From contig NW_026937737.1 of NCBI RefSeq assembly GCF_032062105.1, positions 1 to 64,000 on the forward strand: DNA of 64,000 nt, in the 5' to 3' direction. Numbering within the stretch: the stretch's first letter is position 1; each line of letters starts with the position of its first letter. Below, in pieces: positions 18,001 to 26,900 of this stretch. This stretch comes from Saccostrea cucullata. Lineage: Eukaryota. The position numbers were made by a program.

Positions 18001-21000
18001 ATATCATATCTCAACAATCTTCACAATTAAATAAATATATCAACAAAAAGAAGAAAAAATCTGTGTAAGTATTTCTTATGTATTTATTTCTTTTTTTAAA
18101 TTTTACGCTAGACTTGACTGTGCCGCTACAAAAGTTGGCGCGATTCAGTAAAACATTATACATGTATTAACTAAGTAATGTACATAACATTGAAAATTTT
18201 GTTTGCAAGTCATGTAAAATTTCGTGATGAGCATATTTTTTATCAGTGAGAAGGAAATATTTTTAGTTTTTTTTCCTTGTTTAAACAAAGGTAGAGACCA
18301 CACAATCTTCTTTCCACACACTAGATAAAGAAAACAGTTTCCGAGTAGCGGAAACACTACTGAAACTTTGCGGAAACTAAAGTGTACTTATAGCTTCCTC
18401 AAAGTTTCAATACTGAAATGACATATTGAGTAATCAGTAATTCTGAATATAAACTTGGTAAATTGTTTTTGAGGTGAATGTAACTTTAATTTTTTGCAGT
18501 AGCTAGAGGGACTTCTATTGTTAATAATACTCACGATGTTCTATTTGTCTTTTGTGCCATATTTCCTGAAGGTAAACACAACTTTAAAATATTTTTTATG
18601 CGAAATAATTCAGATCTTAAACAGAGAGTAAAAATGTAAGCCATAAAAAATTTAAGCTATTTGACTTCCATTATTAAATATCTCATTTTCTATTTTACAT
18701 GTCGTGTTTTTTTTTTTTGTTTTTGCTTTGTTTTGTTTTGCTGTGCATAAACTGGTATTCATAAATTTTAGTTCGGGTTTGACACTCTCTCTCTTCAAAT
18801 CTCCAAGCTGTATCTCAGATCTACAATTTGATAGAATAAGAGCATTATAAAATAAATTTTGATAAACAAATTCTTAGTAAAAAAAAAATCTAAGAAATAT
18901 TTAACATATTCACTGATTTTATTCCATTTTTATCGATGCATTCCTCTACTATGTTAACCTCATCCCAAACTAGCAGAACCATGGTAATATGCATCGGAAA
19001 ATTAAGGCAAAGCAGTTAATTGATTGTAAAAAAAAATGTGGTACACAAATCGTTAGAAATGCATAAAAGCATTGCTGCTTTCTATAATAATTTTATTTTT
19101 TATTTGTCCTTAGATTTTAATAATATCAACATTTTTCATTGAACAAAAATGTTCTTTTGAGACGTCGAAAACGGCTTGCAGGGCCTCCCTTAATTCAACT
19201 TGCAGTGTATCGGAATGTCCACAAAATAAAGAAGAGTTTGAAGCGGCTGCGAGACGGAAAAAATGTCACCAGTTTAATTACGTAAATTGCAAACCTCTGA
19301 AATATCACTGTATTTTGAATGAAAATTTGACAGGATTAATTGAAGTATGTACCCCTCAACGGTATATTCAATGTAAGTGTATGATTTAATGTACAGTGTA
19401 CTCATCAAATATATATGTTTATTACAGCTGCTCAAATAGCTAACAATTCAAATTTAATAAAATATAAGTATACCATATTTTTTTACAGATGGGCGGTGTG
19501 CTATATTTGAGGAAAGATTCCATGGCATTGGGATCACCTATAAACAAAACTGTACCTATTCTGATAACCCCTGTCCATCAATTTATAATTCAACAGAGTC
19601 GTATAAATGTAGGACCCCCCCCCCCCCAACATACCTGTACCTACGCTTTTACAATATACATATATAATCAGTTTTTTTAAAACATATATCGTAAATATCA
19701 TTAACATAAATGATTCCATGGAATAGCATCACATAACTGTTTCTTCATACCCTCCTTTAATATATTTTTATTCATATTTATATGTCTTCGTATTGAAAAG
19801 ATGTATATTATCCTTTCAATAGATAGCCAATGCTTTAAATTGGTGAATAATTCCACTGGATTATATACAAAAACTAAGTAAGATCTTAAAAAAGACCCTG
19901 ATTACCTAGCGGTATTTCTTTCTGCTGAGATTAAGCTTCGCTTTGCTTCTCTTTGACAAGGCTTCAAAGATGTTGTTTTGACCAATGTGTGCCCGTCTTC
20001 TACATGTCAATCAACAATGAATCAACTTGTTAATTTGTTTTGAGAACCTTATCTTCAAATCTTTTAGGTATCTTCAAATTTACTTACTTTCATTCCTGAA
20101 TAAAATATATGCCCCTCTCAAGGATGGAATATTAAAGAAAAACAGATAAATAGGTGGAGAAATTTCTTTTAAAAAAATCCACTTCTTGGTCAGAAATGAA
20201 GAAACGGGTGCTATTCTATGCACGACGAAAATAACAATAAAAAATAAATTCGCCCTTATTCAGTGGAAAAAGGGTAAAAATAATAATGTGAAAATAATCT
20301 AAGAAACTGAGAAAGTTGGAATAGAGGAGTTTTACGAAGAGACTTACTTTTACAATCGACGACTGACTGAATTTAAACATAGACAAACTCCAATTACTAG
20401 AATGTAAAATTCAGGTGTCGAATGTAAAAGTAAGCCTCTTCATAAAACTCTAGAAGTAGATTAAATACAAAGATGGCGATCATAATGACAGGAAAGAAAT
20501 AAGAAACTTTATGAAAAAGTATTCTCTATTAAAGCTATCTTAAATAAGCAAACATAGGGATAAAAACTGTCAACCTAAAAGGAGATTATAGTTTATTAAG
20601 AAATGTAAAAAAGGAATTTTGAAAAAAAGTGTCAAAAAGGGAAAAAAGAGATGCTTAAAACGTAGATCTAGTAGATCAACTATCATTTGAAATAATGAAG
20701 CAATCAGACCATAAAGTATCGAATTCTAGAGGAGTGCAAATCAATTCACTCAAGAAGGAAACTGTATACCAAAAATAGAAGCAAGAAAAAAGTTATTATA
20801 ACTACTATTACATTAAAACTGTCATATCTTTTTTTTTCAAAATAGAGAAATAAAAGGAGTTGAAAAAAGACACATGAATGAAGGACTGGAGAACAAATGC
20901 TATAAAATAGGACAGCAAACTAAGGGAAGCATAGAGTTTTATTAATTCAAAAAAGCAAGAACTGATAGTTCAAGCAGAACACTACTCGTAAAAAGGCATA

Positions 21001-23957: not shown

Positions 23958-26900
23958 AAGAGGGACGTTAAACAATAAACAATCAATCAATCTAATTTAT
24001 AATGTGGGGAGATCGTAATGCTTTTGTGTAGAACATTTTCAATTGGAAAAAATCAATCCCACATGCAGGTGATCAATGCATACGTGTACATGTTGGCTAC
24101 ATTAATATACCATAGTTACACAGATGTATCAGTTTCCTTGGAGTCTTATTTCTAGTCCAGTGTGATATACATGTTCATATGTTTTGAATCACTGTTGCTG
24201 CAGCAGTAACTTCTGTCATAAGATAATCGATGTTCATCTGATAAAAACAAGCTTTCTTTTCGTATTGTTTTTTTAATCTGCTTCTTTGTAATAATAGAAA
24301 CAAATATCTAAGTGCTAATAACTGTAGTAACATGTAGTATCCAACAGAAAATAAGACGACCTTGCTTCTGAATACTATATTTATTCTCTTTGCTAACTTT
24401 GTTTTGAAATAAATTGGTTTAAAACAGACGAAAAAGTGAGAATTCCAAATTTGAAAACAATTACATTTATTGATAATGTATATGTTTTGAACACTTTAAA
24501 TTATACAAAAAAATGAATATATATAGAAAATCATGCATTTTAATTTTTAATTGTAACAAGTGTACGGAATCATTTTGAGTTTATTTTAAATAATAGAAAG
24601 AAGACAAGAGAAGAAGGATGCTAAAGATGGTACAGAGGATATTATGCTTCAGGAGATAGACTCACTATCTTTAAAATAGAAAGGTGTTTCAAGTGGATTA
24701 ATTTTTCCTCCAATTCATTCATTTCATGTACATGTAACATTTAATTATTTTGATAAGAAACATTAACATTTTTTCTCTTTCTTTATAATTATCCTACTAA
24801 TATTTAAGATCGCGGAATATAAACTGGCACAATTGGAAATATACAGCTTACGTCATTTCCATCTGTTACAATCAAAACATTCAGTGATAGTCAATGAAAT
24901 GGGCGGGTACAATTCGACGCGGACGTTTGGAAAACATGGGATTGAAATTGCATATCATTTTCAATCCACCTCGGCTACGTTAGAAGGCACATTATTACTG
25001 ATTGATCCAGAAGACAAATAATTTCAATTTTGGTACAGTTTGATTTTTTTTGTCCAGTGTTTTAAATGAATAAATATATAAAGGACAAATATTTCATTTT
25101 TGTTTGGTAAATATATGTACAGTAAAATTTGTCTAATCCGGACTCTGAGTACTCCGGATCTTTGTCCATTCCGTCTTAAAAAGTTTAGACCCATGCACTT
25201 CTTTAACAAATTCATTATTTCCTTTAATCCGGCCACACATAATAACCTGAGTAACTTCAAATCAATTAACACCTTTCGTGGTGGATGTGATAATCCGTGT
25301 TTACATTAACATGATAAGTGCGATGAGACGAACTCATTGAAATGCGGCGGTGACACTGCCCACTTGAAAAACAAATATTAGGCTTATATGATTAAATTAC
25401 AATTTGGTATAACTCCTTTTACCACATTATTACATAAACACGAAAAATAGATGCACGCGATTTACGAATCAAAATATAAATCGGGATTGAAAATCGAACG
25501 CATTTGAAAATGGCGCCATAACACTGCGGGGGAAGACGTAATTTTTCACATGAAAATTAAAAGTCCAATCCAATAATTAGCACGTCGTAAATATTTGTGC
25601 ATTACTGTGCATACATTAAATGGGCTCTTTGACAAGCGAAACCCGGTCCGCTTGACATATATAGAAAGCCTATATTATGCGTGCCTGTAGATTTTGATTT
25701 TATAAGATAGCATTTCACCCGACTTTCAAACTTTGTGAACAAACAGAAAAATACAGTAAGTCATGCGAGAATATTTTATAATTTCTAGACTCCAAAATAT
25801 TGATTGATTTCATCATTTAATTGTATTTATATTATGTATATGATATACTTGTAAATAAACAACGAAATTTCAAAATTAATATTTTCCTGCATTTTTCCTG
25901 CACTCCGGATTCTGTCTAAACCGGCCAAATTTTATGGAACCGGCGGTAGCCGGTTTGGACAAATTATACTGTATATCTTTGTGTTGGTGTGTGTGTGTGT
26001 GGGGGGGGGGGGTGTAAGACGATTTTTAAATAAAGTTGTCCAACAGTTTTCAGTGAGAATAAGTATAAAACTCATGCACTCTTATAATCCTAAAATTAAA
26101 ATATATTGTCATGTTAAGCCATGACCTGACTCGACAATTTTTTTACCCCCCCCCCCTTCTAGAATCAAATATCTCCTGAAAAATAATTGTTTTGTATGAT
26201 CTTTCGAGTTCTTAAAATTATAAGCTAAAGCTCATATTAATGTGAACTTCAAACAATATGTATTTGGGAGTTGAATTATAGTTGATTTTTTGGATCATAC
26301 ATTCACTCTTTGCTTTGAAAACAGCTCAGGTGGATTGAAAATGAATTTTGATCTGCAATTTCAATCCCATGTTTTCCAAACGTCTGCGTCGAATTGTACC
26401 CGCCCATTTCGTTGTCTATCACTGAATGTTTTGATTGTAACAGATAGAAAGGACGTAAGCTGTATATTTCCAATTTTGCCAGTTAATGTTCCGCGGTCTT
26501 ATATTAATTTCAAACTTTTACTTTACATTTTATTATTCATTTTACTTTAATGGATGCCAATAGGTACACGAATTACTAATTAAACCTATGACCATACACG
26601 CTAATAATTTATTTTTGCAGAGTGGTGTAGAGAAATTTGAACAATCAAATTGAGATTTTTATTCAAATGGAATGTATTTTTCTGAAATACTGAGAAGGTT
26701 ACTGGGAGCCTATGAAATTATACCATCGTGTGCAGATATTACACAATGATTTTGAGGATTTTAACAGTCATTTTTAACAACCATAACACAAAGGTTAGAT
26801 AAGATATAATCAACTGCTTGCAGTTGAATATGGTTGAAACTATGTAACAATCAAGACGAAATGTAGAATTGCATTTTATCATGCATAACAGAGAATTATA

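What the first reader, a model, noticed from the sequence alone, without database searches (positions are those of the whole stretch)
18536..24679. Hidden six-exon orphan receptor with an unnamed Cys-rich ectodomain
Seen: six GT-AG exons with matching phases (36+259+120+55+146+83 = 699 nt) give 232 aa: a signal peptide, a ~115-aa Cys-rich domain (C..S.....V..CP.N..E...AA.RK.C...C...YHC.LN....L.EVC...C...C...CP..Y.S..SYKY..C) with several N-x-S/T sites, a TM helix and a ~35-aa tail with no catalytic domain. None of it appears in-frame in the ORF track. I recall this pattern only from uncharacterised bivalve proteins and cannot assign a named domain. Inference: member of a lineage-specific, rapidly duplicating surface receptor family, possibly immune; a short-tailed form could be a decoy or co-receptor.
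Basis: partly seen in the sequence, partly recalled or inferred. Interest (0 to 1): 0.7.

Follow-up and report, generated by a model that had tools for sequence, protein, structure and literature searches.

The report
Oyster surface protein, unnamed cysteine domain
A real six-exon oyster gene, already in the public annotation as an uncharacterised protein, encodes a small single-pass membrane glycoprotein whose cysteine-rich outer domain marks a very large, so far oyster-only family with no named domain and no recognisable fold.

Summary
The six GT-AG exons are there and their phases fit. Exons 1-5 match, residue for residue, the public protein 'uncharacterized protein LOC134248745 isoform X2 [Saccostrea cucullata]'.

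The product is a type I membrane glycoprotein: hydrophobic N-terminus, ~110-aa ten-cysteine domain, TM helix, 35-aa charged tail. The domain has no Pfam family and no PDB sequence relative. Relatives model with block-mean pLDDT 94-98 in one and mostly so in the other, yet find no fold match in PDB or BFVD.

The family is large: 361 representative clusters, and all 30 named relatives are oysters. Relatives join the same ectodomain to unrelated tails, including BIR (5 of 149) and nSTAND3 NTPase plus ankyrin (3 proteins). This fits, but does not prove, a sensor role in cell-death or immune signalling.

Verdict: a real gene, not hidden from public annotation, in an uncharacterised family. 'Decoy/co-receptor' remains inference. 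The joined product was not searched; exons were searched singly.

The parts
18536..18571 (+). Exon 1: ATG and 12 codons, first half of the hydrophobic N-terminus (putative signal peptide)
   Evidence: donor GT; exact substring of P0001 at residue 1
19114..19372 (+). Exon 2: rest of the N-terminal hydrophobic stretch and first half of the ectodomain (8 Cys, motifs CP, YHC, EVC; 2 sequons)
   Evidence: P0001 residues 13-98; 361 representative hits; HMM E 3e-29
19489..19608 (+). Exon 3: second half of the ectodomain (3 Cys, 2 sequons)
   Evidence: P0001 residues 100-138; collinear with 6 of 6 relatives, directly after exon 2; HMM E 1e-4
19823..19877 (+). Exon 4: last conserved Cys of the domain and start of the stalk (overlapping sequons)
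   Evidence: P0001 residues 140-156. Too short (17 aa) for the Pfam tool
22206..22351 (+). Exon 5: stalk, transmembrane helix, basic juxtamembrane stretch
   Evidence: best 19-mer hydropathy 3.59; P0001 residues 158-205; only weak Pfam matches, to TM-region families among others
24597..24679 (+).
   Evidence: Matches P0001 at 23 of 26 residues only. No database protein seen with this ending
60190..60272 (+). Distal copy of the last exon: same length, phase and acceptor. This is the ending of the public isoform X2
   Evidence: Exact substring of P0001 at residues 207-232; 77 of 83 nt identical to the proximal copy
7298..7555 (+). Relic of a paralogous exon 2 with the same AG/GT boundaries and one in-frame stop. 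No further exons of that copy were found
   Evidence: tblastn 52% over 86 aa, E 1e-28; translation; sequence; HMM finds nothing else of it
24431..30524 (.). Proximal copy of an old duplicated segment: end of intron 5, last exon and downstream DNA. It matches 60014-62206 in seven collinear blocks of 70-87% identity
24802..26504 (.). 1.7-kb insertion with 156-nt terminal inverted repeats (93% complementary), about 120 nt after the proximal stop codon. It is absent from the distal copy, where similarity runs on without a break

Best explanation
The region holds a genuine oyster gene, public locus LOC134248745 of Saccostrea cucullata. It encodes a 232-aa type I membrane glycoprotein with four parts:
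- a hydrophobic N-terminus that most likely acts as a signal peptide;
- a ~110-aa alpha/beta ectodomain held by five conserved disulfide-forming Cys pairs and carrying several N-glycan sites;
- a short stalk and one TM helix;
- a 35-aa charged tail without any catalytic or adaptor domain.

Shown: the exon structure, the domain signature, the TM helix, membership of a very large family known by name only from oysters, and the fact that the same ectodomain sits in front of many unrelated cytoplasmic tails.

Inferred: the ectodomain is the ligand-binding (sensor) module of a modular receptor family. Some members feed into cell-death or immune machinery through BIR or STAND NTPase-ankyrin tails. 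The short-tailed form encoded here cannot signal by itself. It would act by binding the same kind of ligand and either pairing with a signalling partner through its TM or tail, or competing with long-tailed relatives.

The transcript's 3' end is unsettled. There are two interchangeable copies of the last exon, and the public isoform uses the distal one across a 37.8-kb intron.
For: Gene model:
- GT-AG introns and phases fit.
- Exons 1-5 are identical to P0001, named 'uncharacterized protein LOC134248745 isoform X2 [Saccostrea cucullata]'.
- The exon 2/3 junction is collinear on 6 of 6 relatives, and exon 4 follows directly on one of them, P0003.

Family:
- 361 representative proteins at E<=0.001 and 12 at E<=1e-10.
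- YHC is present in 149 of 150 listed proteins.
- Invariant C, P, C, Y, C; six further Cys are held by 82-100% of the rows that have a residue there.

Fold:
- AlphaFold2 on two relatives gave block-mean pLDDT 94-98 over the ectodomain of P0003, and the same in P0005 apart from one block at 87.
- The secondary-structure order is short helix, strand, two helices, a run of five to six strands, two short helices.

Membrane topology:
- TM window of hydropathy 3.59.
- 55 of 149 relatives have a TM after the domain; 28 of those have tails of 60 aa or less.

Modularity:
- 35 tails of at least 100 aa fall into 17 mutually unrelated groups.
- BIR lies C-terminal to the TM in 5 of 149 relatives.
- nSTAND3 plus ankyrin occurs in P0031, P0153 and P0170.

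In print (PMC8195603, section 10 and passages read): a Crassostrea expansion of receptor-like proteins with an unnamed 'cysteine-rich extracellular domain' and a TM helix in front of apoptosis/immunity domains. The authors read this as sensing of external stimuli.

Indirect sign of expression of the family: 106 of the 120 relatives listed are complete proteins of about 200-370 aa on unnamed contigs of 0.9-4.3 kb. That is too short for genes with this intron structure.
Against: - No expression or splice-junction data for this gene could be consulted.
- The last exon is ambiguous.
- The signal peptide was not tested with a predictor, and its N-region is atypical.
- The window's protein has 13 extracellular Cys, an odd number, against 10 conserved ones.
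- No ligand, partner or immune regulation is known. No paper mentions any of six locus names of the family.
- BIR and STAND tails occur in a small minority of relatives, and such models could include fused gene predictions.
- Identity of this ectodomain with the one in PMC8195603 could not be tested. The text gives no accession and supplements are closed. No DED or TRADD-N Pfam match was seen in 0 of 149 relatives at E<=0.001, nor in 0 of 5 long-tailed ones at E<=5.
- The taxon range rests on 30 named hits.
Confidence: 0.6

Rival explanations
1. The mature mRNA always ends in the distal copy (60190-60272), and the proximal copy (24597-24679) is skipped.
For: - P0001 ends exactly with the distal copy.
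- A 1.7-kb inverted-repeat element sits about 120 nt behind the proximal stop codon and is absent from the distal copy. This may have disturbed the proximal 3' end.
- No database protein with the proximal ending was seen.
Against: - The proximal copy keeps an open frame, the same phase and a nearly identical acceptor.
- It is 77 of 83 nt identical to the distal copy.
- It is met first by the splicing machinery, 2.2 kb rather than 37.8 kb after exon 5.
- The name 'isoform X2' implies at least one other isoform, and P0001's 90% cluster holds 2 member sequences.
Confidence: 0.4
2. The family is not about defence. The ectodomain mediates cell adhesion, self or gamete recognition, or a developmental or settlement cue, and the short-tailed protein is a simple adhesion or recognition molecule.
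For: - Most relatives with a TM have short tails or tails without any immune-type domain: 28 of 55 have 60 aa or less, and Pfam finds nothing in most long tails.
- Glycosylated Cys-rich single-pass proteins are typical adhesion molecules (general knowledge).
- No immune expression data were seen.
Against: BIR and nSTAND3-ankyrin tails behind the same ectodomain point to cell-death and immune-type signalling in at least 8 relatives. Expansion to hundreds of divergent copies in one lineage is the usual pattern of invertebrate recognition receptors (general knowledge).
Confidence: 0.25
3. This copy is an unexpressed or decaying member of the family in a transposon-rich neighbourhood. It is intact only because it duplicated recently.
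For: The locus holds an exon-2 relic with a stop, a duplicated 3' end, a transposon-like insertion just after the proximal stop, and two retroelements between the two last-exon copies.
Against: - All six exons are open, all splice sites are canonical, and all ten conserved Cys are present.
- A public annotation models it with more than one isoform.
Confidence: 0.1

Closest known systems
Public protein 'uncharacterized protein LOC134248745 isoform X2 [Saccostrea cucullata]' (P0001)
   Same: 232 aa. Identical to the peptides of exons 1-5 and to the distal copy of the last exon.
   Different: It implies a 37.8-kb last intron instead of 2.2 kb.
Oyster paralogues/orthologues, e.g. 'uncharacterized protein LOC125654531 isoform X2 [Ostrea edulis]' (P0003, 234 aa)
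   Same: Same layout: hydrophobic N-terminus, ten-Cys domain, TM, short tail. About 49% identity over exon 2. Exons 2, 3 and 4 align collinearly.
   Different: The tail is unrelated in sequence. The window's protein has two extra Cys in the first half of the domain and one in the stalk.
Receptor-like TRADD-N expansion of Crassostrea described by Kaur et al. 2021 (PMC8195603; section 10 and passages read)
   Same: An unnamed cysteine-rich extracellular domain, then a TM helix, then variable intracellular domains that include STAND NTPases and ankyrins. It is oyster-specific and expanded.
   Different: That family is defined by an intracellular DED plus TRADD-N module. This gene has only a 35-aa tail. 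No relative gave a DED or TRADD-N Pfam match. Whether the extracellular domain is the same could not be tested.
C-type lectin-like domains (top but insignificant fold hits: surfactant protein A, struthiocalcin, mannose receptor CRD4)
   Same: Similar size, mixed alpha/beta, disulfide-stabilised, extracellular.
   Different: Foldseek E 0.81 or worse, TM-scores 0.16-0.22 on the rows listed, rmsd 11-16 A. No Lectin_C match in Pfam.

Membership tests
Unnamed oyster ten-cysteine ectodomain family (relatives of LOC134248745) | First-half signature: C, CP, C, C, YHC, EVC in fixed order | tested here: met
   These positions are invariant or held by at least 98% of 149 relatives. All are present in exon 2.
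Unnamed oyster ten-cysteine ectodomain family (relatives of LOC134248745) | Second half with four further conserved Cys and the Y.S...Y..C ending | tested here: met
   These Cys are held by 82-96% of the rows that reach this part. They are present in exons 3 and 4. Exon 3 aligns with 14-21 identities to 6 of 6 relatives.
Unnamed oyster ten-cysteine ectodomain family (relatives of LOC134248745) | Significant sequence similarity to members | tested here: met
   Exon 2 gives 361 hits at E<=0.001. Family HMM on the window gives E 3e-29 for exon 2 and 1e-4 for exon 3.
Unnamed oyster ten-cysteine ectodomain family (relatives of LOC134248745) | Single TM helix after the domain (type I layout) | tested here: met
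   Hydropathy 3.59 in exon 5. The same layout occurs in 55 of 149 relatives; many of the rest are short or partial models.
PAN/Apple domain (lead recalled from memory, from no call) | Match to a PAN-type Pfam profile or to solved PAN/Apple folds | tested here: not met
   No such Pfam family for the exons or among the 13 families found in 149 relatives. No PAN/Apple structure among the rows listed by the Foldseek searches.
C-type lectin-like domain | Lectin_C profile match or significant fold match | tested here: not met
   Best Foldseek E 0.81, TM-scores 0.16-0.22 on the rows listed. No Pfam match.
Immunoglobulin superfamily (neuroplastin hit) | Significant profile match and an all-beta sandwich | tested here: not met
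   E 0.012 and 0.041. The alignment rests on a shared ..YHCV.. motif and the TM stretch, with accuracy 0.53. The models contain helices.
Disintegrin | Pfam PF00200 at or above its cut-off | tested here: not met
   13.7 bits against a cut-off of 35.1, E 0.11, 27 residues only.
Crassostrea receptor-like DED/TRADD-N proteins (PMC8195603) | Intracellular DED plus NCOA6-clade TRADD-N module | tested here: not met
   The tail is 35 aa. Exon 5 gave only weak matches below cut-off and exon 6 gave none.
Crassostrea receptor-like DED/TRADD-N proteins (PMC8195603) | The same cysteine-rich extracellular domain | not testable with these tools
   The main text names no accession for these proteins.
IAP (BIR-domain) proteins | At least one BIR domain | tested here: not met
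   None in this gene. Present only in 5 of 149 relatives, after the TM.

The most novel reading that the evidence does not exclude
The ten-cysteine ectodomain is a new fold. It serves as the common extracellular sensor of an oyster-specific receptor system that wires outside recognition directly to cell-death and immune machinery: membrane-anchored BIR proteins, transmembrane STAND NTPase-ankyrin proteins and several still unrecognised tails. Short-tailed members such as this gene would act as decoys or co-receptors that tune the system.
Probability: 0.3. Interest if true: 0.65.

Novelty: new variant of a known kind. Interest (0 to 1): 0.4.

Why it matters
Oysters have no antibodies and rely on large, fast-changing families of innate receptors, many of them still unnamed. 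This family is large and, by name, known only from oysters. It carries a confidently modelled domain that Pfam, PDB and a viral structure library do not recognise. It is joined in some members to apoptosis and STAND-type signalling modules. Defining the domain would allow hundreds of 'uncharacterized protein' entries to be named. It would give invertebrate immunologists a candidate sensor module to study and possibly add a fold to the catalogue. For this locus itself the result is modest: the gene is already in the public annotation, and only its 3' end needs sorting out.

Tried and rejected
- Named domains. Pfam on exons 2, 3, 5 and 6 singly gave nothing at cut-off. On 149 relatives, the BIR, nSTAND3 and ankyrin matches checked lie in the tails; the other families were not placed.
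- PDB by sequence profile. Only neuroplastin came back, at E 0.012 and 0.041. I rejected it after reading the alignment.
- Fold searches of two confident models.
  - PDB: 0 of 32 and 0 of 127 matches at E<=0.001.
  - BFVD viral structures: 0 of 353.
- The recurrent C-type lectin top hits were rejected on TM-score and rmsd.
- ESM Atlas. It returned only unnamed mollusc clusters and no usable named cluster.
- More family exons in the window. A family HMM on the six-frame translation found only this gene and the exon-2 relic. A weak hit at 12307-12393 (E 4.5) was rejected after translation.
- Other genes nearby. Ten further ORFs of 90-142 aa had no Pfam family. There were no Rfam families and no tRNAs.
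- Known domains in the long tails of relatives. Pfam found none in 14 of the 20 relatives, no DED or TRADD-N in any, and none in the 10 TM-less relatives. At E<=5, 0 of 5 had DED or TRADD-N. PDB phmmer of P0163 gave 0 hits.
- Literature.
  - No paper holds any of six locus names of the family.
  - None holds 'nSTAND3' together with 'oyster'.
  - Listings showed nothing on this domain.
  - The 2026 IAP survey (PMC13159474, passages only) has no occurrence of 'membrane', 'signal peptide' or 'extracellular'.

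
Full report
**What is in the sequence**

All five introns begin GT and end AG behind pyrimidine-rich tracts. The lengths 36, 259, 120, 55, 146 and 83 nt add up to 699 nt, with phases that fit and a TAG stop. Introns measure 542, 116, 214, 2328 and 2245 nt.

Read exon by exon:
- Exon 1 and the start of exon 2 are hydrophobic.
- Exons 2-4 carry 12 Cys and six N-x-S/T sequons, two of them overlapping.
- Exon 5 carries a further Cys in the stalk, a TM stretch (best 19-residue hydropathy 3.59) and a basic juxtamembrane run.
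- Exon 6 is a charged 26-codon tail.

The bacterial-style ORF list holds none of this in frame. Of 11 plus-strand ORFs of at least 40 aa in the region, three overlap an exon and all three are in another frame (by arithmetic).

**How the splice model was tested**

I left out the joined step: the six-exon product was never assembled, searched, scanned or folded.

Exon 2 alone (86 aa) against 1.84 billion representative proteins gave 361 hits at E<=0.001, 12 at E<=1e-10 and one at 1e-50. The top hit, P0001, has 232 aa. A source names it 'uncharacterized protein LOC134248745 isoform X2 [Saccostrea cucullata]', and it sits on an 82-kb contig.

The peptides of exons 1-5 are exact substrings of P0001 at residues 1, 13, 100, 140 and 158, leaving one residue for each split codon. 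Exon 2 and exon 3 also align back to back, with the one-residue gap expected, on 6 of 6 other relatives. Exon 4 follows directly on the closest of them, P0003.

The gene model is therefore real in the sense of a public, independent prediction and of family collinearity. The window most likely comes from that oyster (Saccostrea: Ostreidae, Bivalvia). It is not human-like.

**The last exon**

It ends with a second copy at 60190-60272, which matches exactly.

The two copies have the same length, phase and acceptor context. They share 77 of 83 nt, with 2 synonymous and 3 non-synonymous codon differences. They belong to an old, collinear duplication of the gene's 3' end and downstream DNA: 24431-30524 against 60014-62206, in seven blocks of 70-87% identity.

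About 120 nt behind its stop codon, the proximal copy has a 1.7-kb insertion with 156-nt inverted ends. The distal copy lacks this insertion. No copies of exons 1-5 lie in front of the distal exon.

The public isoform thus implies a 37.8-kb last intron that contains two retroelements. The name 'isoform X2' and a cluster of two member sequences suggest another isoform.

**The domain**

In alignments of 149 relatives (P0001 left out), one C, the CP pair, one C and the Y and C of YHC are invariant. Six further Cys are held by 82-100% of the rows that reach them. This gives ten conserved Cys. The window's protein has all ten plus three more.

No Pfam family reaches its cut-off on any single exon. 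The best for exon 2 is 13.7 bits against cut-offs of 29.8 and 35.1. On the 149 relatives Pfam found 13 families at E<=0.001. Those checked, BIR, nSTAND3 and ankyrin, lie in the tails.

A family profile finds in the PDB only neuroplastin, at E 0.012 and 0.041. That alignment rests on a shared YHCV-type motif and the TM stretch.

AlphaFold2 with the 149-row alignment gave confident models of two relatives:
- P0003: mean pLDDT 81.5, with block means of 94-98 over the ectodomain.
- P0005, a short form consisting of signal plus domain: mean 87.5, pTM 0.77.

The order of elements is short helix, strand, two helices, five to six strands, two short helices.

Foldseek found nothing at E<=0.001:
- PDB: 0 of 32 and 0 of 127 matches, best E 0.81, TM-scores on the rows listed no higher than 0.25.
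- BFVD: 0 of 353 matches.

The ESM Atlas returned only unnamed mollusc clusters. No library of predicted cellular structures was on hand, so 'new fold' is not excluded and not shown.

**The family**

Two profile searches that return names gave 27 hits, 16 of them named, and 343 hits, of which 120 were listed and 14 named. All 30 named proteins are from oysters: Ostrea edulis, Crassostrea angulata, C./Magallana gigas, C. virginica and S. cucullata. That these genera are Ostreidae is my own knowledge except for Saccostrea. All are called 'uncharacterized' but one, 'cell death abnormality protein 1-like'.

106 of the 120 listed are complete proteins on contigs of 0.9-4.3 kb. For genes built like this one, that looks like spliced transcripts.

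Of 149 relatives, 55 have a TM after the domain. Their tails are 60 aa or less in 28, 61-150 aa in 11 and longer in 16. Many of the rest are short models that stop at the exon 2/3 boundary.

Thirty-five tails of at least 100 aa fall into 17 groups without detectable similarity to each other. Five relatives have a BIR domain after the TM, at 41.6-51.7 bits against a cut-off of 22.9. Three have an nSTAND3 NTPase followed by ankyrin repeats. One has a coiled coil. Most long tails have no Pfam family.

**How it most likely works**

Shown: a secretory-type N-terminus, a disulfide-rich glycosylated ectodomain, one TM helix and a short charged tail, in a family that recombines this ectodomain with many cytoplasmic parts.

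Inferred: the ectodomain binds an extracellular ligand. Long-tailed members pass that event to cell-death or immune machinery. The short-tailed protein encoded here has no signalling part of its own. It acts with a partner or as a competitor.

The nearest description in print is the Crassostrea expansion of receptor-like proteins described by Kaur et al. Those proteins have an unnamed cysteine-rich extracellular domain, a TM helix, a DED/TRADD-N module and variable STAND, ankyrin and other domains (PMC8195603, section 10 and passages read). I could not test whether it is the same ectodomain. No relative showed DED or TRADD-N by Pfam.

I put the anatomy and family membership at about 0.9. I put the sensor reading with an immune or cell-death context at about 0.35-0.4.

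**Neighbourhood**

An exon-2 relic of a paralogue lies at 7298-7555. It has the same splice boundaries and one in-frame stop, and no other exons of that copy were found.

The stretch between the two last-exon copies holds the window's virus-like element, described under 'noticed in passing' without places of breaks, and a second reverse-transcriptase element.

**What stayed unchecked**

- Expression and junction reads.
- Isoform X1.
- The joined product (left out by rule).
- Exons 1 and 4 in Pfam (too short).
- Predicted-structure libraries of cellular proteins.
- The taxon range beyond named hits.
- The closed collections metagenome contigs and viral contigs.
- Supplements of PMC8195603.

**Verdict**

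It is wrong about the gene being hidden or orphan. It is untested on function.

Novelty: a known kind (single-pass Cys-rich surface receptor family of a bivalve) with an unrecognised ectodomain.

Noticed in passing
window 37475-51618 (terminal repeats 37475-37936 and 51151-51618; coding part 38606-43980, minus strand): This is the virus-like stretch: an LTR-retrotransposon-like element. Two direct repeats of about 460 nt, 97-99% identical and 13.7 kb apart, enclose minus-strand reading frames with PNMA/gag-like, reverse transcriptase, RNase H and integrase Pfam matches.

As it stands the coding part is split over four ORFs of at least 150 aa. Counts only:
- the gag-like part is interrupted by 1 in-frame stop;
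- pol is interrupted by 3 in-frame stops between its RT/RNase H and integrase parts;
- there is one frame change between gag-like and pol, which is usual in such elements.

The element lies inside the 37.8-kb last intron of the public isoform. Described only.
   Followed up: partly
window 56360-58672, minus strand: A second reverse-transcriptase element. Several ORFs of 98-249 aa are present, and one has an RVT_1 match (E 1e-10). From the ORF frames the reading frame changes at least twice. No other Pfam domain was found.
   Followed up: partly
window 23739-23992, with copies at 5314-5570 (minus) and 62312-62507: A G+C-richer interspersed repeat of about 250 nt sits inside intron 5, with two further copies in the window at 84% and 72% identity. 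It has no tRNA or Rfam match. Kind not determined.
   Followed up: partly
window 45194-45687, 48175-48496 and 50678-50999: Tandem repeat arrays (units of about 170 nt and 72 nt) lie in the non-coding half of the LTR element.
   Followed up: no
relatives P0023, P0034, P0056, P0095, P0149: Membrane-anchored BIR proteins: ten-Cys ectodomain, TM, then a C-terminal BIR domain. The two IAP surveys seen do not use the word 'transmembrane' (listing). One of them has no 'membrane' or 'extracellular' at all (passages).
   Followed up: partly
relatives P0031, P0153, P0170: Transmembrane STAND proteins: the same ectodomain and a TM in front of an nSTAND3 NTPase and ankyrin repeats, in Ostrea edulis, Crassostrea gigas and one unnamed source. 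No paper holds 'nSTAND3' together with 'oyster'.
   Followed up: partly
relatives listed: Many short database members of the family stop within a few residues of the exon 2/3 boundary and then run into unrelated residues. This looks like partial or read-through gene models, and it hints that this intron position is shared across the family.
   Followed up: no
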